From the IMG/VR virus record IMGVR_UViG_3300037781_000013, positions 1 through 50,020 of that record: a stretch of 50,020 bases of DNA; one strand, given 5' to 3'. This document shows, piece by piece, positions 1 to 50,020 of the stretch. The first letter of the stretch is position 1. Every line of letters starts with the position of its first letter. A program made the translations under genes and the position numbers. The notes beneath the pieces are model-generated. The model ran no database searches and had not been told where the DNA came from. It worked only from the letters and a program-made list of their open reading frames with translations. Source of the stretch: a virus. Taxonomy: Duplodnaviria > Caudoviricetes.

Positions 1-127
1 GGAGGATGTGCCCGTTGGTTGTGTTGTTCAATATGACGATGAACTATATCTAAAGCTAGATGAACAAGCAGATGATGACGGTGATTATTACTGTGCTAAG
101 TTTGCAAGGGAAAGTCGTGGAGATCGT
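1..127. repeat. 127-bp direct repeat identical to 49894-50020 (circular assembly overlap)
   Basis: Exact sequence identity at both window ends; an ORF reads through the junction in frame. Confidence 0.9.
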
Positions 128-3817: not shown

Positions 3818-3818
3818 C

Positions 3819-3983
3819 ATGAGAAGTTTAATATTTATATTGTCTATGTTCTGTTTTATAGGTGCGACACATTTAGGATATTTTCCAGAAGATGTGTTTG
3901 AAGCCGAGTCTGTTGGTCTAGCTTTATTCTTAGGGTTGTGGGTTATTATGGACTTTATAGCCGTTTCAAAAGGTAAGTTATAA
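3819..3983 (+). CDS. small membrane protein, 54 aa
   Basis: AGGAG RBS; two hydrophobic segments; stop codon lies inside the dyad at 3979-3993. Confidence 0.6.
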   Translation: MRSLIFILSMFCFIGATHLGYFPEDVFEAESVGLALFLGLWVIMDFIAVSKGKL

Positions 3984-3993
3984 CAATGTTATA
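3979..3993. promoter_or_regulatory. 15-bp dyad TATAACAATGTTATA (perfect copy)
   Basis: Supplies the TAA stop of the upstream ORF and the ATG of the downstream ORF. Confidence 0.8.
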
Positions 3994-4096
3994 TTTTACT
4001 TATTTCTTCTCAGGCTTCCTAACAGCTATAATGGTGATGGTGGGGATTGCCTGTACATACGGCCCTAGTGACGATGATGAGGACGATGAGGAATAA
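3986..4096 (+). CDS. small membrane protein with acidic tail, 36 aa
   Basis: MLYFTYFFSGFLTAIMVMVGIACTYGPSDDDEDDEE. Confidence 0.5.
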   Translation: MLYFTYFFSGFLTAIMVMVGIACTYGPSDDDEDDEE

Positions 4097-4100
4097 AAAG

Positions 4101-4280
4101 ATGATAGCATTTAAGATCATACTTAAGCTGACAGGCTTGACAATCCTCTTCTGGTGTGTAATAATGTTCACATCCTATCTAGTAGGAATACCGGAATACT
4201 GGATGGACTTTTTCAATGGCTTTGTTACATGTTACATCTGGTTTAAAACAAAACTATCGGAGGAACTCTGGAATGAGTAG
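4101..4280 (+). CDS. small membrane protein
   Basis: GAGGA RBS; hydrophobic. Confidence 0.6.
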   Translation: MIAFKIILKLTGLTILFWCVIMFTSYLVGIPEYWMDFFNGFVTCYIWFKTKLSEELWNE

Positions 4281-39624: not shown

Positions 39625-41553
39625 TTAAGAAGCCATTAACACACACGGAACTAGATATGAACCGTCTGAGTAAGTTTCAATGACCTCAGTAGATGTAATT
39701 TTGGCAACCGTACTGGCCTTCACTGTGTAATCACGGGTCATCATGCTTTTCTGCACACGGCCTGTACCATCACCAGCACTTTCGATTAAATCACCGTTTT
39801 TGAGTTTAACGTCCTTACCAATACGGATAACGAAATCGCCCACCTGCGCGACATAGAAATCATAGGGCGCATAAACATCGTCTTTGTCGTAATCCTGAAA
39901 CACACCGGCCACGGATTTATCACCGACAACCGAACTGATCAGGGTTTTATTAAGCTGCTCATTGGCTTCCTGAACGATTGTGGCTTTTACCACTTCGCCG
40001 GATTCTGCGGTGTAGTCAATAACGTCTCCCACTTCGCCGGGGCCATCGTATAGTTCGTGATGCTTCACTACCTGCTCCGGTGTGCGCTCAACTTCCTCAA
40101 CATAATCGACAATTCGCCGAGTGAAGTATTTCTGAACCTGAACTATTTCGAAAACCGGGTTACCTTCGTCATCTTTAACTTGCTCGCCATCTTCCATAAT
40201 AGGAACTTTCTCAGGCTCAGTAACAGGGTTTCCTAGCTCATCATAGATGGGAAAGGTTTCTTTCTGGACTTCATCGACGGTAATTTCCTCAACCGTCTGC
40301 ACTGCCTTGCCATCAACAACTTCATGGGTAATTTTCTTCTTCTTAACGGGCTTGGTTTTGTAGTGAGTGACCTTTTCAACCTCTGCCGGAACTACTTCTT
40401 CCCATTCAACTGCAAGCCATACGCACATTTCGTCGGTATTAGAAAGAATAGTTCCGCGATAAACTTCTGGCGGTTCAGCATGAGGCCCATCAGCCCATTG
40501 TGACCATCGAGATAAGTGAGCACCGTTGTAAGAGACAGTCGTACCAGATACAGAAATAGAGCCTTCTTGCGTTGTATCTTGACGAAGGGATATTAGTATT
40601 CCGTCACTGGTTAATCTGTTAAACGTAGCAACATCACCGTCAGATAACGTTGCCCTAAATCTACCACTCGGAGCGATTTCAACACCTTCGGATGATGTAT
40701 CTTGACCAGTTTTCCCCCATAACTGAGATCGCGTAGAATCAATTCTTGTTGCCTCAACACCGTTTATGTCAAATTTTAGTGCCGATGACGCGCCTGCTCT
40801 TAAGTTGAGATCGTATTTTGTGAATAAAAAGCCGTTCGCGCCGCTGGTGGTCAGCGTCAGCTGGTCTTCTGTTGCTGCCGTATCTCGAATTACAATATCA
40901 CCGGCAGATTGGTTTAGGGCGATAGTGCCTCCGGCTGTTATACCATCAACAATATCTAGGCCGTTGCTGTCTAGCTTCATTTTATTTACATTTAAAAGCC
41001 GCCATTCTTGATCTTCAGCCCCTGAAGCAGATTTCCGAATGATATAATCGGAAGCTACAAACGCACCCCCATCATCAAGAGTTTGAAAAACCGTATCGTC
41101 CAAGGCTTGCACAAGCCTTGTTTTATTGTGCGTGGATGTACCATCAGACTCCGACAAGATAACTTGCGGCGTTCCATTTTCTATCTCAAGATTCCCGGTT
41201 AAACCAAGAGACGTAAAACTCGCCGCCCCACCGTTCAGCGGAACATCGCCCGGATCGGTGCCTGTGTCTTTGTCGTATACACTACCAAGACCAAGAATAG
41301 TTCTTACCTGCGAAGCACCCAATACCTCTGGTTCACCGTCTCCTGCTGTGTCTCTTCCTAGGATAGAGTCGGTGGCTATATCTTCTATATTTGTTAAAGA
41401 TACAGACAAGCCACTCTCTAGTTCAGAGAGGGTTATTTTCTTGCCCGTACCGCTAGCCGAATCTGTTGTGTCGTCAACGTCAACAACGTAAAACACATCA
41501 GCTGCGTCTATTTCATTCCCTAATAGGGTGTTTTGATCTGTTACTTTAGCCAT
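39625..41553 (-). CDS. tail fibre/spike with a C-terminal chaperone-like domain
   Basis: Thr/Gly/Asp-rich beta repeats; G.I..SGTT.SY; VG...IR.....NGDL..S..DG.G..Q...TVAK...VPC.L. Confidence 0.75.
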   Translation of the reverse strand: MAKVTDQNTLLGNEIDAADVFYVVDVDDTTDSASGTGKKITLSELESGLSVSLTNIEDIATDSILGRDTAGDGEPEVLGASQVRTILGLGSVYDKDTGTDPGDVPLNGGAASFTSLGLTGNLEIENGTPQVILSESDGTSTHNKTRLVQALDDTVFQTLDDGGAFVASDYIIRKSASGAEDQEWRLLNVNKMKLDSNGLDIVDGITAGGTIALNQSAGDIVIRDTAATEDQLTLTTSGANGFLFTKYDLNLRAGASSALKFDINGVEATRIDSTRSQLWGKTGQDTSSEGVEIAPSGRFRATLSDGDVATFNRLTSDGILISLRQDTTQEGSISVSGTTVSYNGAHLSRWSQWADGPHAEPPEVYRGTILSNTDEMCVWLAVEWEEVVPAEVEKVTHYKTKPVKKKKITHEVVDGKAVQTVEEITVDEVQKETFPIYDELGNPVTEPEKVPIMEDGEQVKDDEGNPVFEIVQVQKYFTRRIVDYVEEVERTPEQVVKHHELYDGPGEVGDVIDYTAESGEVVKATIVQEANEQLNKTLISSVVGDKSVAGVFQDYDKDDVYAPYDFYVAQVGDFVIRIGKDVKLKNGDLIESAGDGTGRVQKSMMTRDYTVKASTVAKITSTEVIETYSDGSYLVPCVLMAS

Positions 41554-44453: not shown

Positions 44454-46218
44454 CCTCCTCTAGAGGTGTTGCTTGTTGTACTTGTGTGTCCTCTGCTGCT
44501 TGGTTTGCCAAACGCTGAGACTCCTCCCGTTCAAACACAGCAGCGTCCTTCCTGACAATAGAGAAGCGTTGCAGTTGCAGAGTTTCTTCCAGCAGCCTTG
44601 CAATCTCAATGTCAGAGAAGTGACGTTCCACTTTAGGCCACATTTGAGAATTGGTGATGCCTACTAAGTTCTGTAAGAGCTGCGCTCTCTGAGCAAAGTG
44701 TCTAGCACCAATAGGACGCAGCTTACCTTTAGCTGTGATGTCCTCTTTAGTAATGGTGAGGAAGTCGGCTACAGCCAAATCATCATCCATCACACGTATA
44801 ACATCAGCTCCAGTCATGTTACGTACAGCTGTTTCTAACATGTTATTAAGGAGAGGCTCAAGAACATCAATTTCAAATTGTGTAATCTTTTCTTGGAAGA
44901 TGCGTCCAGCAGCATTCTCTAGTGCTTGTACTTCAAACGCTGTTTTCTCACCGGGAGTACGAATACCCATAGCTTCCCTTGGTGCTCCTGCAAACTCTTC
45001 CATCAGCTGCATGAGAATAGCAATCTCGTTATTCACTGCTAGCGCCTCTGTAGGCTTCGTGAGAGGCTCTATATCGCCATCTTCACCACACACTACCTCC
45101 CCATTAGGGTAGAACTCAAAATCCTGTACATCCCCCTTACGCTTCCACATAGGGGTGATGATTAAATCCCAAGCATCAGCTTTAGCATTTTCCAAATGAT
45201 CCAGTCGGTATTGCATACCAACAAGGTTGGCTAGTGGCCCCATTCCATACAGATTGTCAGGCCGCTTACGCCACGCTGTATGCACTTTATATCCGTTACG
45301 TTTCCATGCAGGGATAGGCTCTTTACGTACAATCTTACATCTGTCCATTACAGTGATGATGTAATCGTCTAGCAGCTCTCCTGTCTGTGGATCGTAGGCT
45401 GTCCCTTCAAACTCTAGAAGCTCTACATACCCACTAGAGTAGTAGTTGTACAAATCACCAAAACCATCTACATCATAGCCTGAGGCTTTCCTAACCTCAT
45501 CCACTGTGTATCCAGAGCCACTAATTAGTCCACGTACACGCTGACCATGCTCGATTGCAGACTTTATCCACTTATCGGGACGTGCCTCCTGCATCTTAAC
45601 CAGCTCACCTATCCTAACAATCTTACGTGTAATCTTAGGACTAGCTTCAAATGAGATGGCTGTAGGGTCAAACACAATATCGTGTATACCAACCCGTATT
45701 GCTTTTGGCCCAATATATCCGGGAATCTTTTCTCCAGTTTCCTTATCTGTCTTGGTTTCATTCACCCAAATAACATCAGCAAAGGCATTACCTGTGTCAA
45801 TGTAGTCGTAAAGAAGCTGGCTCACTGTGTCCCTAAAACCACTAATGCGCGTCTTATTAGACATGTACGCCTGTATAGCTTCTCTCTTGCCTTTTGAATC
45901 ATCCTCTTCTGTATACCCTTCCCACTGCATCCAGTTGTCATTAGGGAATAAGGAGGCGATATAGTTGGCGTGTAGGTTGTCTCTAATCTGGCATAGCTTA
46001 GGGACTGTAGTGCGGTTGTGCCAAGGTAGTTGTTCCTGTGACTGTGCTCCTAGTGTATGGAGAGTGTCTGTAGCAAACACAAAGTTTCGCTGTTCTTCCA
46101 GCTCATCCATCATACCGGAACGCTGATCACGCCAGTCTGTCCAGTTGTAAACAATAGAGTCTGCAAGCCCATCCGGGCTGAAAAGGCTCTCAAGTTCCTT
46201 CACTGCATATTCATTCAT
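44437..46218 (-). CDS. portal protein
   Basis: 593 aa after TerL; PKLCQIRDNL, WR.RPDNLYGMGPL, GIRTPGEKTAFEV. Confidence 0.88.
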   Translation of the reverse strand: MNEYAVKELESLFSPDGLADSIVYNWTDWRDQRSGMMDELEEQRNFVFATDTLHTLGAQSQEQLPWHNRTTVPKLCQIRDNLHANYIASLFPNDNWMQWEGYTEEDDSKGKREAIQAYMSNKTRISGFRDTVSQLLYDYIDTGNAFADVIWVNETKTDKETGEKIPGYIGPKAIRVGIHDIVFDPTAISFEASPKITRKIVRIGELVKMQEARPDKWIKSAIEHGQRVRGLISGSGYTVDEVRKASGYDVDGFGDLYNYYSSGYVELLEFEGTAYDPQTGELLDDYIITVMDRCKIVRKEPIPAWKRNGYKVHTAWRKRPDNLYGMGPLANLVGMQYRLDHLENAKADAWDLIITPMWKRKGDVQDFEFYPNGEVVCGEDGDIEPLTKPTEALAVNNEIAILMQLMEEFAGAPREAMGIRTPGEKTAFEVQALENAAGRIFQEKITQFEIDVLEPLLNNMLETAVRNMTGADVIRVMDDDLAVADFLTITKEDITAKGKLRPIGARHFAQRAQLLQNLVGITNSQMWPKVERHFSDIEIARLLEETLQLQRFSIVRKDAAVFEREESQRLANQAAEDTQVQQATPLEEDDPLG

Positions 46219-47747
46219 TAAATTCGTTGCACTCCGCCAAATCGTTTATTAAATCCAATCTTACGTTTTTCTGTATTTAGGTATTTACTAACCAAAGGAG
46301 GAGTGGCTACGCTAACAGCACAAGCCAAACAATCCTTAATATCGTCATGGCGCGGTCGCGCCAAAACCAACTCTTCTTCCAAGGCTGGTGTGTGTCCACC
46401 CTTGAAATGATACATCTTTAAGTCGTTATATCGGGGTTCCAGAGCAGCTGCAATACGCTCCTCTTTAGTCCCCTCATTCCTAGTTGGTCGATAGGCATCA
46501 ATCTTCAAAGGCACTTTAATTCTATTCTTAATGTCCTTTACAATAACATCAGCACCTACGTTTACTTCAGCCCTGAGGACAGGGAATTGCCACCTAATGT
46601 GCATCTTCTCTAGATGCTCAATATACTCTGCCATCTTATCTGTCCTAAACCTGTCTATATCTAAGACGTAGATGTTCTCTTCTGCGTCCATTCCTATAAC
46701 TACAATGGACGTAAAGTCAGCAGACTTCTTGGTAGAGAAGGCAAAGTCCATAGCAGCAAACAGCTTAAGCTTTTTGTCTCCATAATGCCAGAAGCCGTTT
46801 ACATTCCTAATCTTGCCCTCATCGTAATACTGAAACCTCGTATCATCCATTCTGTTACTTTCAGGATCGTTCGGGTCATTGTAATACTGAGCATAGAATT
46901 GTGTTCTGTCTGTGTACATCGTAGAGATGGTGGCTAGGGTGCGAGCATCAAACCCAAATGCTTTCCCATCGTCTCTTACAGACCGAGGCCATAAAAACTT
47001 CCCATTAACCTCCACAACTTCTTCCATGATGTCCCATAGAGGCTCGTTGCCTGTGCATTCCCCATCATCATCAAATGTCAACACCATCTGATCTTTCCAG
47101 ACATTGTATTGATCGTCTGGATGGTAGCGTGTACCGCAAGCCTTAATCATTCCTCCTGCATTCAGAATGGAGGCCATCTGAGACATTGCAGCAGCACACT
47201 TACGCCTTCCTTCTGCTGTGTAGGCATTATCAGGAACTACAACGTCATCTGCTACAATCACATCTGCGTGAAGTCCTGTAGTGTTTGTTGTCAAACCTGC
47301 GGCTGTAACGGTCATGTCCCGTACACCTTCTTTCCTACGTACAGGATGGTCTACAGCAATAGCTGTGGTGCTCCACTTAGCTCGTTTGCCTTCCTCTGGA
47401 TGCACCATGTCAGGCCAATATTCTTTATACTTCTTGCTTGTTAAGATGTTCTTGATTGCGTACAGCTGGCTCTCTGCCAGCGTAGAGGTTGCAGACACAT
47501 ATAGAATTGTAGTGTCTGGATGTTTAGTAATCCACCACGCACACCATACAGCAATACAATGGCTCTTCATATGTCCACGGGGGAGAAGCAAAAGACAATT
47601 AGGGTTTTCCGTATTCTGGAGGAACCTAAAGGCTTCTCTGTGAATATCCCCATACATCCTTTCTGGATGTGTTAGGACAGCAAAGCTCCAGAGGTCATCC
47701 TCTGCAAGCTGTCTAATCTCGTCTAGGTGTTCATTAAGTCTGGACAT
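46218..47747 (-). CDS. terL: terminase large subunit
   Basis: PRGHMKS Walker A, IVADD Walker B, GTRYH, AMDFA..D nuclease, HDD..D. Confidence 0.92.
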   Translation of the reverse strand: MSRLNEHLDEIRQLAEDDLWSFAVLTHPERMYGDIHREAFRFLQNTENPNCLLLLPRGHMKSHCIAVWCAWWITKHPDTTILYVSATSTLAESQLYAIKNILTSKKYKEYWPDMVHPEEGKRAKWSTTAIAVDHPVRRKEGVRDMTVTAAGLTTNTTGLHADVIVADDVVVPDNAYTAEGRRKCAAAMSQMASILNAGGMIKACGTRYHPDDQYNVWKDQMVLTFDDDGECTGNEPLWDIMEEVVEVNGKFLWPRSVRDDGKAFGFDARTLATISTMYTDRTQFYAQYYNDPNDPESNRMDDTRFQYYDEGKIRNVNGFWHYGDKKLKLFAAMDFAFSTKKSADFTSIVVIGMDAEENIYVLDIDRFRTDKMAEYIEHLEKMHIRWQFPVLRAEVNVGADVIVKDIKNRIKVPLKIDAYRPTRNEGTKEERIAAALEPRYNDLKMYHFKGGHTPALEEELVLARPRHDDIKDCLACAVSVATPPLVSKYLNTEKRKIGFNKRFGGVQRI

Positions 47748-48028
47748 TAATATCCTTCACCGGGGGTATGAAATCGAAGCTCTACGTGAGCATCCATAAC
47801 ATCCCTTTTCATACACTCAATCTCACCAAGCATAACAGCAGGACGTTGCACTACAAACGCATTCCCTGTGTTATAATTATTATACTCAAGAATAATACCA
47901 CAACCACCAATCTCTCCGTCTTTGGCTAGCTGTAGTACAGTTTCCAGCATTTCAATGATGTGCTCATTAGGCTTATCTTTAGCTGGAGGGGAGAGAGACA
48001 CAATCTTATTATTCTTATCGCTTGGCAA
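47747..48028 (-). CDS. hypothetical protein
   Basis: LE..L..AK.GEI domain. Confidence 0.65.
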   Translation of the reverse strand: MPSDKNNKIVSLSPPAKDKPNEHIIEMLETVLQLAKDGEIGGCGIILEYNNYNTGNAFVVQRPAVMLGEIECMKRDVMDAHVELRFHTPGEGY

Positions 48029-48530
48029 GGATACGCTCCTTATCTGTTGTGATGGTTTTTGTTCTAGAGTCTACTCCCTGTAGGTATTTCCTTTTTTCTT
48101 CTTTAGAGGGCTTTCCTCTCTCTGTCCTTTTCTCCCATCCCTTCTCAACAATCCACTTAGCAGCTGAGAAGTTATCAGGGGCCATCTTCCTAATGTTCTG
48201 GATGCATTCACTCACAAGTTTGGCATCCCTCTCCTCTCTCCAATCTTCTATGTGTTCTGCTAGACAGTCAGTGTCTTGTATTCTTTGCCAGTGTTGCCAT
48301 CCACCCAAATGTTTATTAGCAAACTCATATTCCTTAGGATCATCACAGCTAAGAAACAATTTCTTTAAGCTGGCATACACCACTTCATTACCATGCTTAT
48401 CTGTCTCTACAATATCCTCATCCTTCAATGTAAAGAGAGCAAGCTCTCGTCCCTTGGCATATGTATGCTCATAAAACAAAGACTTTGTAATCCACTGTCC
48501 ACTTGAGTTTTTAAACTTATTATCTGGCAT
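48015..48530 (-). CDS. putative terminase small subunit
   Basis: First gene of the late arm, near TerL; LF.E, Y.S...L....D..EY.FA...LG.W.HW. Confidence 0.6.
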   Translation of the reverse strand: MPDNKFKNSSGQWITKSLFYEHTYAKGRELALFTLKDEDIVETDKHGNEVVYASLKKLFLSCDDPKEYEFANKHLGGWQHWQRIQDTDCLAEHIEDWREERDAKLVSECIQNIRKMAPDNFSAAKWIVEKGWEKRTERGKPSKEEKRKYLQGVDSRTKTITTDKERILAKR

Positions 48531-48551
48531 ATACTATTCTGTAGACAACTT

Positions 48552-48669
48552 ATGTATTTAATATATTATTTATATAATTATTATATAATATTTTTCTATA
48601 GGAAAAATATAAACATGTATATAAATATATTATAATTAATATATAATTTAATACTTACTATACAATAGT
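48552..48669. other. near-pure A/T tract (leader of the late arm)
   Basis: About 115 bp with very few G/C. Confidence 0.75.
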
Positions 48670-48699
48670 ATTATAACATGTATTCTATCTATCTGTCAA
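48670..48699 (-). promoter_or_regulatory. sigma70 promoter for the late (structural) arm
   Basis: Minus strand TTGACA-N18-TATAAT with extended -10 TGn. Confidence 0.75.
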
Positions 48700-48854
48700 C
48701 AACTATTTCCAATATTTTATTTTATTGCAGAAATTATTTAGTTGCATTAATAACAATAATCAGACAGTTAACCCCCTTCCCTACCCCTTTTCCAGCCTTT
48801 TTGTCCTATATTATTTTTTGTTAGTTACAATTAATTTAGGTTAGCATTATGTTA

Positions 48855-48866
48855 GTGAGTGCTTAC
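48855..48866. promoter_or_regulatory. SlmA-binding-site-like dyad GTGAGTGCTTAC
   Basis: 10/12 match to the E. coli SBS consensus GTGAGTACTCAC. Confidence 0.5.
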
Positions 48867-48947
48867 ATATAATTTAATGGAATAAGTAAGAGTTGCAATA
48901 ATCAACTAACAACATTCACACTCAATACGCCTTATATATTTGCAACA

Positions 48948-48960
48948 TAAGTTGTTGATT
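48948..48960 (-). promoter_or_regulatory. IHF binding site
   Basis: AATCAACAACTTA fits WATCAANNNNTTR exactly. Confidence 0.55.
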
Positions 48961-49165
48961 TTGCTGGGGTTTGTGTATTTATATTAATTGCTCGCTATCG
49001 CTCGCTTTCTTGCTACTATATATAGGCAATACATAATACATGTTTAGTTATATTGAATGGTGTTTTTATTCCTATTTGTTATATGCCTCTCTAGCTTCCT
49101 GTAAGCCGTTCTAAGCGCGTTTTGTGTTTAGTGGTAGGTTGGTATTAGATTAAAATAATTCGACT

Positions 49166-49184
49166 AATGAGAATAATTCTCGCA
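49166..49184. promoter_or_regulatory. Fur-box-like site
   Basis: AATGAGAAT-A-ATTCTCGCA, 7-1-7 TGAGAATnATTCTC. Confidence 0.6.
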
Positions 49185-49187
49185 ATG

Positions 49188-49204
49188 TTGGCATGGCATT
49201 TGCT
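49188..49204 (+). promoter_or_regulatory. sigma54 (-24/-12) site
   Basis: TTGGCATGGCATTTGCT with GG-N10-GC spacing. Confidence 0.55.
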
Positions 49205-49227
49205 ATGCATTCTTGCTCAGTAGTGGC

Positions 49228-49242
49228 TATAACAATGTTATA
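49228..49242. promoter_or_regulatory. 15-bp dyad TATAACAATGTTATA (perfect copy)
   Basis: Upstream of the UP element of the first early promoter. Confidence 0.8.
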
Positions 49243-49273
49243 AGGAATTAATAAAAATAATTTAAAAAAGTGT

Positions 49274-49301
49274 TTGACACCACCTTTTAGATGTGCATAA
49301 T
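49274..49301 (+). promoter_or_regulatory. strong sigma70 early promoter
   Basis: A/T-rich UP element, TTGACA-N16-CATAAT. Confidence 0.75.
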
Positions 49302-49493
49302 GACTAGCCATAGAGCTATGGAAGTGTACTGCAACTTCCCGGAGAAGGACTCAATAGCTCGCTGACCGAAATGCCAGCCGCACCCGATAGGCGTAAAGCG
49401 ATACACACTTACTTATGACTTAGCTATAAATATTCAACAAAGGGCTGTTAGATTGACAGTCCTTGATTGAGTGTTTATCCTGACACTCTCGCT

Positions 49494-49508
49494 TATAACA
49501 ATGTTATA
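49494..49508. promoter_or_regulatory. 15-bp dyad TATAACAATGTTATA (perfect copy)
   Basis: Directly 5' of the terminator. Confidence 0.8.
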
Positions 49509-49514
49509 AGACTG

Positions 49515-49540
49515 GAGGGCGCATTGCGCCCTCTCTTTTT
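49515..49540 (+). terminator. intrinsic terminator
   Basis: GAGGGCGC-ATT-GCGCCCTC-TCTTTTT. Confidence 0.8.
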
Positions 49541-49584
49541 GCTCAAATGATGATAGCATTTTAGGTGCAACGAGGTGCAACGAG

Positions 49585-49872
49585 ATGAGATTGAAGAATG
49601 CAAAAGTATGTAAAGCTAGTGAAGTGGAAATAGGTGGTATATATGGTCATCCAAACTATGAAGGAGATGACACTACTAGTATGCTGTTTATGAGAGTAAA
49701 CAAAGATGATGGTGGTGGTTATTTTAGTGCATTTCTGGTTGCTTGTGATGGTAGTAGAGCTAATGTGCTGGATGGGACAATGAGTCATACGCCCTTTGAT
49801 TCTACCGTATTGTACAATCCAGACATTAATATAATTAATTTGTTTATTGATACGGTGGTGGAACATGATTAA
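49585..49872 (+). CDS. first early hypothetical protein
   Basis: GAGG RBS inside an AGGTGCAACG tandem duplication. Confidence 0.7.
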   Translation: MRLKNAKVCKASEVEIGGIYGHPNYEGDDTTSMLFMRVNKDDGGGYFSAFLVACDGSRANVLDGTMSHTPFDSTVLYNPDINIINLFIDTVVEHD

Positions 49873-50020
49873 AGAGAGTGGAGCTATGGCACTGGAGGAT
49901 GTGCCCGTTGGTTGTGTTGTTCAATATGACGATGAACTATATCTAAAGCTAGATGAACAAGCAGATGATGACGGTGATTATTACTGTGCTAAGTTTGCAA
50001 GGGAAAGTCGTGGAGATCGT
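49865..50020 (+). CDS. 5' part of a hypothetical protein continuing to 214
   Basis: Open frame across the circular junction. Confidence 0.7.
   Translation, partial: MIKESGAMALEDVPVGCVVQYDDELYLKLDEQADDDGDYYCAKFARESRGDR

What the first reader, a model, noticed from the sequence alone, without database searches (positions are those of the whole stretch)
48770..49301. Gene-free presumed genome end packed with host DNA-binding-protein sites (a possible 'landing pad')
Seen: within ~530 bp of non-coding DNA between the two divergent arms lie, in order, two overlapping KOPS-like GGGNAGGG on the - strand (48774-48786), an ArcA-like GTTA-N7-GTTA (48840-48854), a SlmA-like GTGAGTGCTTAC (48855-48866), an exact IHF consensus (48948-48960), a Fur-like box (49166-49184), a correctly spaced sigma54 -24/-12 site (49188-49204), the phage dyad (49228-49242) and a sigma70 promoter (49274-49301). 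Established: these are gammaproteobacterial consensus sites, and related two-armed podoviruses have their termini between the terminase and early genes. Inference: the Fur, sigma54, SlmA and IHF sites do not overlap either sigma70 promoter and belong to unrelated regulons, so ordinary gene regulation is an unlikely explanation. They may instead recruit abundant host proteins to the first-entering DNA, to ratchet ejection, shield the end from nucleases, or titrate host regulators.
Basis: partly seen in the sequence, partly recalled or inferred. Interest (0 to 1): 0.85.

Follow-up and report, generated by a model that had tools for sequence, protein, structure and literature searches.

The report
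Phage genome-end and early-control region
This gene-free stretch is most likely the packaging end and early-promoter region of a T7-supergroup podovirus; of the proposed host-protein sites, only the IHF site and a C-rich tract recur in related phages, and the C-rich tract belongs to the phage's own end signal.

Summary
The window is a whole 49.9-kb circularly assembled Zobellviridae-like podovirus genome. All eight motif strings are present. The Fur box aligns best 3 nt to the left, at 14/19. As a fixed panel, the six host-factor motifs give 7 hits in 532 bp against 0.2 in shuffles. The panel was chosen after reading the sequence, however, and it fails replication. In the homologous gene-free regions of 9 relatives (11.6 kb), ArcA, SlmA, Fur and sigma54 motifs occur at or below expectation (1, 1, 0, 0).

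Two elements do replicate. The "KOPS-like" C tract is the end of a conserved ~70-nt module found in 18 other phages. In Pseudomonas phage O4, the record's 74-bp terminal repeat starts inside this module. The IHF consensus recurs 6 times in relatives, all in one orientation, against 0.7 expected, and lies 127-394 nt inside the predicted end.

Verdict: "genome end" is supported by homology (predicted near 48743). "Landing pad" is not supported, apart from a plausible IHF site. The closest analogue is the gene-free left end of T7.

The parts
48531..49584 (.). Gene-free divergent region (1054 bp) between the structural arm (- strand, first gene 48015-48530) and the early arm (+ strand, first ORF 49585-49872)
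   Evidence: ORF lists. None of the 3 small ORFs tested inside it has a PHROG match. Homologous gene-free regions exist in ICP2 (1753 bp), CW02 (1091), DMTU_1 (1653), Klyazma (1507), GX1 (1473), L088 (1681), L090 (1582) and CVT22 (1054).
48670..48699 (-). Leftward sigma70-type promoter (TTGACA-N18-TATAAT with TG) facing the structural arm
   Evidence: 12 of 12 positions match. It lies about 20 nt from the conserved end module.
48719..48787 (+). Conserved 'end module': an A/T box (..AGAAAT..), TGCA, then C tracts. It is the predicted terminase recognition and cut region and the start of the terminal repeat
   Evidence: Alignment. The nhmmer profile finds it in 20 distinct sequences, always in the same orientation upstream of the structural arm. 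Profiles built without the window give a single hit in the 100-kb search space, at 48722-48786 and 48721-48748, each with E = 0.07.
48743..48746 (+). TGCA aligned with the first bases of the 74-bp terminal repeat of phage O4. This is the predicted physical left end (inference)
   Evidence: O4 record positions 1-74 equal 50436-50509. In window orientation the repeat starts at the TGCA of the module.
48772..48787 (+).
   Evidence: There are 15 C in 25 nt, and 0 of 300 shuffles reach that. The tract is 18/20 identical to DMTU_1 at the same offset. CW02 carries the identical CCCCCTTCCCTACC. It lies inside the O4 terminal repeat.
48840..48866 (+). ArcA-like GTTA-N7-GTTA and SlmA-like 12-mer; judged to be chance matches
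   Evidence: Shuffle chance in 532 bp is 0.049 and 0.005. Nine relatives give 1 hit (expected 0.93) and 1 hit (expected 0.42).
48948..48960 (-). Exact IHF consensus, 205 nt inside the predicted end; plausibly a real IHF site
   Evidence: Relatives have 6 hits in 11,574 bp, all in this orientation, against 0.71 expected, and 0 of 1000 shuffles reach 6. The background rate is 0.05 per kb over 599 kb. Offsets from TGCA are +141 to +394, and +127 and +276 in GX1.
49163..49181 (+). Fur-like 14/19 match whose core is the palindrome GAGAATAATTCTC (49169-49181); judged to be chance or an unknown operator
   Evidence: Chance in shuffles is 0.043. Nine relatives have 0 hits against 0.61 expected.
49189..49208 (+). 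Sigma54-like TGGCA-N6-TTGC (49189-49203) overlapping a hairpin at 49191-49208; judged to be chance
   Evidence: It is the only such match in the genome, and chance in shuffles is 0.013. The hairpin is listed. Nine relatives have 0 hits.
49228..49242 (.). Phage dyad TATAACAATGTTATA, with a second copy at 49494-49508
   Evidence: Sixteen sites genome-wide (12 exact, 4 with one mismatch). The search allowing up to 3 mismatches on both strands gave 35 matches against 3.4 expected in shuffles.
49274..49301 (+). Rightward early sigma70-type promoter
   Evidence: 11 of 12 positions match.
49306..49545 (+). Structured, untranslated early leader or small RNA ending in an intrinsic terminator (49514-49534 plus a T run)
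   Evidence: Fold z-score is -4.5, and 0 of 200 shuffles fold as well. The terminator is listed. Rfam gives no match.
49548..49563 (+). 16-nt AATGATGATAGCATTT, also present in Klyazma; function unknown
   Evidence: (E = 3e-4). A second Klyazma copy spans that phage's mapped repeat boundary.

Best explanation
The stretch is the terminal and early-control region of a T7-supergroup (Zobellviridae-like) podovirus that uses the host RNA polymerase. Three parts can be told apart.

1. At its left edge (48719-48787) lies a conserved end module: an A/T box, TGCA, and C tracts. The terminase most likely recognises and cuts concatemers here. The mature DNA is predicted to begin near 48743 with a direct terminal repeat of unknown length running rightward.

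2. About 200 nt inside the end is an oriented IHF consensus. It is plausibly used to bend the DNA, either for terminase assembly, as at lambda cosB, or for early-promoter architecture.

3. Further right lies the early transcription unit: the dyad, a strong sigma70 promoter, a structured leader, a second dyad and a terminator. After ejection, host RNA polymerase would act on this end first, as at the T7 left end.

The ArcA-, SlmA-, Fur- and sigma54-like strings are chance matches found by scanning AT-rich DNA against a large remembered motif library.

Shown: the motifs, the promoters, the conserved module, IHF enrichment in relatives, and terminal repeats in relatives. Inferred: the cut position, the existence of a repeat in this phage, IHF binding, and which end enters first.
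For: - The window is the whole genome, with a 127-nt assembler overlap.
- TerL is 54-63% identical to Zobellviridae phages.
- Gene-free divergent regions of 1-1.75 kb occur in 8 of the 10 relatives examined for this. L095 and L110 have 413 and 421 bp.
- Klyazma has a 711-bp repeat mapped by PhageTerm and Sanger sequencing that lies in this region. The same paper states that other family members have 74-138-bp repeats (features).
- The O4 record has a 74-bp exact repeat containing the C tracts and starting at the module's TGCA.
- The module is found in 18 distinct sequences by a profile built without the window. That profile's only hit in the window is at the expected place and strand, with E = 0.07 for 100 kb.
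- Five of 15 metagenomic contigs carrying the module end 115-329 nt beyond it. The PS32B.1 record ends 44 nt after it.
- The IHF consensus gives 6 hits against 0.71 expected in 9 relatives, all in one orientation, and 0 of 1000 shuffles reach 6.
- ArcA, SlmA, Fur and sigma54 motifs are not enriched in relatives.
- The first 925 bp of T7 are likewise gene-free, with a repeat, the leftward promoter A0 and the early promoters A1-A3.
Against:
- The module's score in this window is marginal (8-9 bits, E = 0.07), and its spacer differs from that of relatives.
- Klyazma's mapped repeat starts about 80 nt beyond the TGCA, not at it. The TC6 and PS32B.1 records show no repeat. One 'DTR' contig has a 127-nt repeat, which is typical of assembler overlap.
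- The A/T half of the module sits where an UP element of the leftward promoter would lie, so it could be regulatory rather than a packaging signal.
- The exact IHF consensus is present in only 5 of 13 phages with at least 300 nt available downstream of the module. In this window the flanking A/T tract is weak.
- As a fixed panel, the six motifs are far above the shuffle expectation. The look-elsewhere argument rests on an assumed library size.
- The host is unknown. The source is a pond metagenome.
Confidence: 0.68

Rival explanations
1. One reading: the gene-free end has evolved as a collection of sites for unrelated abundant host proteins (FtsK, ArcA, SlmA, IHF, Fur, sigma54). These would ratchet in, shield, or be titrated by the first-entering DNA.
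For: There are 7 hits against 0.2 expected for the fixed panel, and 0 of 3000 shuffles hit more than 2 motif types. Seven of the 20 genome-wide hits lie here. The region is probably at the physical end. The IHF consensus is conserved in relatives.
Against: - The panel was chosen after the fact. Decoy motifs hit at 0.055 each.
- In 9 relatives the ArcA, SlmA, Fur and sigma54 motifs give 1, 1, 0 and 0 hits against 0.93, 0.42, 0.61 and 0.07 expected. Eight of the 9 relatives have at most 1 motif type, and one (L088) has 3.
- The KOPS-like tract is part of a conserved phage module.
- The SlmA match breaks the palindrome, and the Fur match is 14/19.
- The sigma54 match overlaps a hairpin.
- The host is unknown.
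Confidence: 0.04
2. The region is only a divergent promoter and regulatory region, and no physical end lies here. Packaging is headful or starts elsewhere. The conserved module is an UP element or activator site of the structural-arm promoter.
For: - Two near-consensus divergent sigma70 promoters are present.
- The module's A/T half lies about 20 nt upstream of the -35 box, both here and in Klyazma.
- The ICP2 and CW02 records are not opened at this region.
- The TC6 and PS32B.1 records have no repeat.
Against: - Klyazma's repeat was mapped experimentally in this region.
- The O4 repeat lies inside the module.
- Five of 15 contigs and several records end next to the module.
- According to PMC9960094 (passage), family TerL groups with T7- and T1-like packagers. 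I did not see that paper's supplementary tree.
Confidence: 0.15
3. The AT-rich, repeat-bearing segment with its IHF site (about 48540-49010) is a replication origin, possibly in addition to being the genome end.
For: - GC content is 32%.
- There is a tandem 10-nt repeat, ATTGCTCGCT/ATCGCTCGCT, at 48987-49006.
- An IHF consensus is present.
- T7 carries the promoter phiOL in its left end. That phiOL marks a secondary origin is recalled, not shown by a call.
Against: Only two iteron-like copies exist. No DnaA-box search was run. Apart from the module and the IHF site, I found no conservation of this segment in relatives. The GC-skew switch here simply follows the direction of transcription.
Confidence: 0.1

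Closest known systems
Left end of phage T7 (160-bp direct terminal repeat, leftward promoter A0, early promoters A1-A3, first gene at 925)
   Same: Both have a gene-free stretch of about 0.9-1 kb at the early end. Both have host sigma70 promoters reading into the early genes plus one leftward promoter. A C tract lies near the end: DMTU_1 matches T7 positions 16-30 at 14/15. Relatives share a 13-15-nt boxA-like string with T7 positions 811-825.
   Different: This phage has two divergent arms and no phage RNA polymerase was noted. It has one strong early promoter rather than three. It has no exact boxA string. Its repeat is not mapped. The T7 similarity is short (E = 3 in the pairwise search), so it is only suggestive.
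Terminal repeats of Zobellviridae phages: Klebsiella phage vB_KpnP_Klyazma (711 bp, PhageTerm plus Sanger) and Pseudomonas phage O4 (74 bp in the record)
   Same: They have the same two-arm layout, with the repeat lying in the gene-free region between the TerL-side arm and the early arm. They share the end module.
   Different: TerL is only about 53-54% identical. Repeat length and exact boundary differ between the two relatives and are unknown here. Neither relative has an exact IHF consensus in the regions examined.
Lambda cos (cosN-cosB with IHF site I1)
   Same: Both have a terminase cut site with an oriented IHF consensus a short distance inside the end. This is an analogy based on recalled knowledge. 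The data here are the offsets of +127 to +394.
   Different: Lambda has cohesive ends and a different terminase lineage. No R-site-like repeats were identified here, and binding was not tested.

Membership tests
Direct-terminal-repeat genome end of T7-supergroup / Zobellviridae podoviruses | The same sequence is present at both physical ends of virion DNA | not testable with these tools
The 127-nt overlap of the record is an assembly overlap inside an ORF.
Direct-terminal-repeat genome end of T7-supergroup / Zobellviridae podoviruses | Large terminase related to phages with mapped terminal repeats | tested here: met
   TerL (46218-47747, - strand) is 53.9% identical to Klyazma and 53.0% to O4 over 99-100% of its length.
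Direct-terminal-repeat genome end of T7-supergroup / Zobellviridae podoviruses | Conserved end module (A/T box, TGCA, C tracts) upstream of the structural arm, in the family orientation | tested here: met
   Profiles built without the window give one hit in 100 kb, at 48721-48786 on the + strand, E = 0.07. The score is marginal, but the place and strand are as predicted.
Direct-terminal-repeat genome end of T7-supergroup / Zobellviridae podoviruses | Gene-free region with host-type early promoters reading into the early genes | tested here: met
IHF binding site | Match to WATCAANNNNTTR (consensus recalled) | tested here: met
   Exact match at 48948-48960 on the - strand. The motif is enriched and orientation-biased in relatives.
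IHF binding site | Flanking A/T-rich tract, and actual binding or bending | tested here: inconclusive
   The flank here is TTTTGCTGG, which is weak. ICP2, L088 and L090 have TATATA-type flanks. Binding cannot be tested with these tools.
Sigma54 promoter | GG and GC elements with canonical spacing | tested here: met
   TGGCAT-N5-TTGCT at 49189-49203.
Sigma54 promoter | Functional context: conservation, an upstream activator site, and a gene to drive | tested here: not met
   Nine relatives have 0 hits. The site overlaps a hairpin. It reads into the dyad and the sigma70 promoter, not into a gene. No activator site was sought.
Fur box | Close match to the 19-bp consensus (recalled) | tested here: inconclusive
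Chance is 0.043 per 532 bp. Relatives have 0 hits.
KOPS (FtsK-orienting polar sequences) | GGGNAGGG occurring repeatedly along a replichore with strand polarity | tested here: not met
   The genome has 5 matches, 2 of them the overlapping pair here. The tract aligns with C tracts of the conserved end module.
SlmA binding site | Palindromic 12-mer (recalled consensus) | tested here: not met
   10/12, with the mismatches breaking the symmetry. Relatives have 1 hit against 0.42 expected.
ArcA box | Direct repeats at 11-bp spacing matching the full repeat unit | tested here: inconclusive
   Only the GTTA cores match. Chance is 0.049. Relatives have 1 hit against 0.93 expected.

The most novel reading that the evidence does not exclude
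Zobellviridae-type podoviruses share a previously undescribed genome-end signal: an A/T box, a TGCA cut site and C tracts, about 70 nt in all. In about half of them an oriented host IHF site follows 130-400 nt inside the end. If so, IHF-assisted end recognition, known from lambda cos, would also operate in the packaging or entry of terminal-repeat podoviruses of the T7 supergroup.
Probability: 0.3. Interest if true: 0.5.

Novelty: new member of a known kind. Interest (0 to 1): 0.3.

Why it matters
The striking part of the claim was an evolved pad of unrelated host-protein sites on the first-entering DNA. That part does not survive comparison with relatives, and this is a useful caution about motif-spotting in AT-rich non-coding DNA.

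Two things remain. First, there is a practical annotation result. The physical end of this uncultured phage, and of many unoriented Zobellviridae records and contigs, can be predicted from a conserved 70-nt module.

Second, there is a testable lead. An oriented IHF site sits about 200 bp inside the end in several family members. That could link host nucleoid proteins to packaging, or to early events, in T7-supergroup phages that lack their own RNA polymerase.

Tried and rejected
- **Mapping termini.** The look-up of sequencing runs listed two pond-metagenome DNA runs held as contigs. X1 is the possible source and X2 holds 0.47 of the words.
- **Close relatives for footprinting.** blastn of 48400-49700 against the phage collection found nothing. 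TerL searches in IMG/VR and metagenomes mostly gave 64% identity or less; one partial hit (L053/L122) reached 71% in its best segment. In the phage collection the maximum was 63%. The neighbouring 171-aa protein had no relative in IMG/VR by pattern search, and its next-best match in the 5.8-billion-protein set is 49%. Base-by-base conservation of the region could therefore not be tested.
- **RNA families.** Rfam and tRNA searches found nothing.
- **Klyazma boundary motif.** I tried to read repeat boundaries from the Klyazma boundary motif (GATA|GC) and from the shared 16-mer. I rejected this because the motif is inverted relative to the arms in this phage and no inverted partner exists.
- **Module regex.** My first regular expression for the module was too strict. 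I replaced it with an nhmmer profile.
- **IMG/VR 'direct terminal repeats' label.** The label on the L094 contig reflects a 127-nt repeat, the usual assembler overlap, so I did not count it as evidence. The L110 contig is classed as linear.
- **Literature.** The 'Zobellviridae' + 'terminal repeats' search listed 5 papers; I read passages and part 1 of the reference list of PMC9960094 only. The ICP2 termini search was a listing only. The IHF / terminal repeat / podovirus search was a listing with nothing relevant. The boxA / T7 search was a listing, and the passages of PMC5725501 did not show the boxA sequence, so the boxA consensus is recalled. Passages of PMC6209634 say nothing about termini.
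- **Earlier scan notes.** The search of earlier findings by sequence found nothing.
- **Not done.** There was no DnaA-box or full position-weight-matrix scan against a curated transcription-factor library, because none was available offline. No host prediction was made.
Full report
**What the window is.** The window is the entire genome held for this record, a single contig of 50,020 bases. Its first 127 nt repeat its last 127 nt, and the junction lies inside a + strand ORF. The record is therefore a circular assembly opened at an arbitrary point, and its ends say nothing about the virion ends.

Genes run on the + strand from 1 to about 25,990 (CobT-like protein, DnaB-like helicase, DNA polymerase, ribonucleotide reductase). 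They run on the - strand from 25,994 to 48,530 (major head protein, portal-like protein, large terminase at 46218-47747). TerL is 54-63% identical to Zobellviridae podoviruses such as ICP2, CW02, Klyazma, O4 and oyster-metagenome phages. Apart from one partial IMG/VR hit at 71% in its best segment, nothing closer exists in IMG/VR, the JGI metagenomes or the 5.8-billion-protein set. Both sequencing runs that hold the stretch are pond metagenomes, and the host is unknown.

**Checking the observation.** The non-coding gap is 48531-49584, 1054 bp at 32% GC. ORFs of 20-53 aa inside it look like translated AT-rich DNA. The 3 tested have no PHROG match. The best register of the Fur-like match is 49163-49181 at 14/19, not 49166-49184, and its core is a 13-nt palindrome. 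The stretch is bracketed by a perfect leftward sigma70-type promoter (48699..48670) and an 11/12 rightward one (49274-49301).

- They give 7 hits in 48770-49301. Dinucleotide-preserving shuffles give 0.2, and 0 of 3000 shuffles hit more than two motif types.
- Genome-wide there are only 20 hits, so a third of them fall in 1% of the genome.

Taken at face value this is very strong. However, the panel was assembled after reading the sequence, so the test is circular.
- Column-permuted decoys of the same motifs hit the real region with a mean chance of 0.055. A reader holding about 110 motif variants would then expect six hits.
- With 50 variants, the Poisson chance of six or more is about 0.06 (my arithmetic).

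Statistics on this window alone cannot settle the question, so an independent replication was needed.

**Replication in relatives.** The same two-arm layout, with a long gene-free divergent region, is present in eight relatives:
- ICP2: 1753 bp, with three annotated sigma70 promoters
- CW02: 1091 bp
- Pseudomonas phage DMTU_1: 1653 bp
- Klyazma: 1507 bp
- GX1: 1473 bp
- CVT22: 1054 bp
- two IMG/VR contigs: 1681 and 1582 bp

In nine such regions totalling 11,574 bp, with the window excluded, observed against expected hits were as follows:
- KOPS 3 against 0.76
- ArcA 1 against 0.93
- SlmA 1 against 0.42
- IHF 6 against 0.75
- Fur 0 against 0.61
- sigma54 0 against 0.07

Eight of the nine relatives carry at most one of the six types, and one (L088) carries three. 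The collection is therefore not a family feature. Four of the six sites behave as chance matches.

**What the KOPS-like tract really is.** I oriented all regions like the window and aligned them. The C tract then falls in a conserved module of about 70 nt: an A/T box (TAATTTnnGnnAGAAAT), AGGGTnAATGCAC, then two or three C runs.
- CW02 even carries the identical CCCCCTTCCCTACC. DMTU_1 is 18/20 identical at the same offset from the first structural-arm gene.
- An nhmmer profile finds the module in 20 distinct sequences, always on the same strand relative to TerL.
- Profiles built without the window give exactly one hit in the window's 100-kb search space, at 48721-48786 on the + strand. One profile used 7 sequences and the other 18. 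The score is marginal (E = 0.07), but the hit falls where homology predicts.
- The C richness here (15 of 25 nt) was reached by 0 of 300 shuffles.

**Link to the physical end.** Several lines tie the module to the genome end.
- PMC9960094 (passages) reports a 711-bp terminal repeat for Klyazma, found by PhageTerm and Sanger sequencing. It also reports 74-138-bp repeats for other described family members. In the record, the repeat lies inside the gene-free divergent region.
- The Pseudomonas phage O4 record carries an exact 74-bp repeat at both ends. In window orientation it starts at the TGCA of the module and contains the C tracts.
- Five of 15 metagenomic contigs that contain the module end 115-329 nt beyond it. 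The PS32B.1 record ends 44 nt after it, and the TC6 record starts inside it.

By homology, the mature DNA of this phage should begin near 48743 and carry a repeat running rightward through 48772-48787. It remains an inference for four reasons: Klyazma's boundary is about 80 nt further in, some records show no repeat, one "DTR" contig shows only a 127-nt assembler overlap, and I could not lay reads.

**The IHF site.** This is the one host-factor site that replicates.
- The six consensus matches in relatives are all in the orientation seen here, with none in the other. Shuffles expect 0.37 and 0.34 for the two orientations, and 0 of 1000 shuffles reach six.
- The rate in 599 kb of related phage DNA is 0.05 per kb, against 0.52 per kb in these regions.
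- Anchored on the module's TGCA, same-orientation sites lie at +205 (window), +209 (ICP2), +183 (L090), +141 (L088) and +394 (L109). That is 5 of the 13 phages with at least 300 nt available downstream. One site in the opposite orientation lies at +154 (L099). GX1 has two sites, at about +127 and +276.
- Several sites have the A/T-rich flank typical of strong IHF sites, but the flank here is weak.

The motif could be a phage-specific element that only resembles the IHF consensus, and binding is untested.

**The right-hand part of the region.** From about 49220 onward, the sequence is early-transcription control. It holds a dyad that occurs at 16 sites in the genome, the strong promoter, a 240-nt structured leader (z = -4.5; no Rfam match), a second dyad and an intrinsic terminator. 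Relatives carry tandem early promoters, each followed by a 13-nt string, GCTCTTTAACAAT. The same string is found in T7 between promoter A3 and gene 0.3. I recall that this string is the rrn-type boxA. This phage lacks it. These features belong to other notes on this genome. They show that the sigma54-like and Fur-like strings sit in ordinary promoter-proximal DNA. The sigma54-like string also overlaps a hairpin.

**Mechanism.** The best-supported reading is a T7-like end.
- Shown: the first 925 bp of T7 are gene-free and contain the repeat, a leftward promoter and the early promoters.
- Inferred: terminase recognises and cuts at the module, and a terminal repeat includes the C tracts.
- Inferred: IHF may bend the DNA about 200 bp inside the end, either for terminase assembly, as at lambda cosB (recalled), or for promoter architecture.
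- Inferred: after ejection, host RNA polymerase engages the early promoter.

A host machine acting on the first-entering DNA is therefore a known principle for T7 (recalled). A pad of unrelated regulator sites is not needed and is not supported.

**Verdict.** The feature is a new member of a known kind. Interest is modest. It comes from the conserved end module, which I did not see described in the passages I read, and from the oriented IHF site.

Noticed in passing
window 1-127 and 49894-50020: The first and last 127 nt are identical and lie inside a + strand ORF. This is an assembler overlap of a circular assembly, so the true genome length is 49,893 bp.
   Followed up: yes
window 49306-49545: A transcript of about 240 nt runs from the strong early promoter to an intrinsic terminator. 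It folds far better than shuffles (z = -4.5), has no Rfam match and contains no plausible ORF. It could be a small RNA or an attenuated leader.
   Followed up: partly
L083 (ICP2), L084 (CW02), L085 (DMTU_1), L079 (Klyazma), L090; T7 L087 811-825: Relatives carry GCTCTTTAACAAT, which I recall as the rrn-type boxA, downstream of their tandem early promoters. In CW02 each copy is preceded by a small hairpin. T7 has the same string between A3 and gene 0.3. This window lacks it, but both local dyad copies read GCT(A/TA)TAACAATGT and so share the TAACAATGT core.
   Followed up: partly
window 49548-49563; L080 2628-2643 and 3082-3094: The 16-nt AATGATGATAGCATTT is shared exactly with Klyazma (E = 3e-4). 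A second Klyazma copy spans that phage's mapped repeat boundary. On the opposite strand it reads as an extended -10 element (TGCTATCAT). Its orientation relative to the arms is inverted between the two phages. Unexplained.
   Followed up: partly
L079/L080 (Klyazma record 1, 711/712, 49587/49588): Both boundaries of Klyazma's mapped 711-bp repeat carry GATA|GC on opposite strands, cut at the same position. This may be a nicking motif.
   Followed up: no
L084 4264-4332 (CW02 record about 41263-41331): The conserved non-coding end module overlaps the 5' part of the annotated CW02 gp57 ORF. The ORF or its start may be mis-annotated.
   Followed up: no
window 49563-49582: An exact tandem repeat AGGTGCAACG x2 lies immediately upstream of the first early ORF (ATG at 49585).
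   Followed up: no
L085 3785-3799 against L087 (T7) 16-30: The start of the terminal module in Pseudomonas phage DMTU_1 (ACCTAAAGTACCCCC) matches the T7 left end at 14 of 15 positions. In both phages the string lies a few nt from the real or predicted end. The match is too short to be significant on its own.
   Followed up: partly
window 4100-4112: A second exact copy of GATGATAGCATTT forms the start of an unlisted 58-aa hydrophobic ORF (ATG at 4101) in the 3818-4215 gap. A small membrane protein gene may be present there.
   Followed up: no
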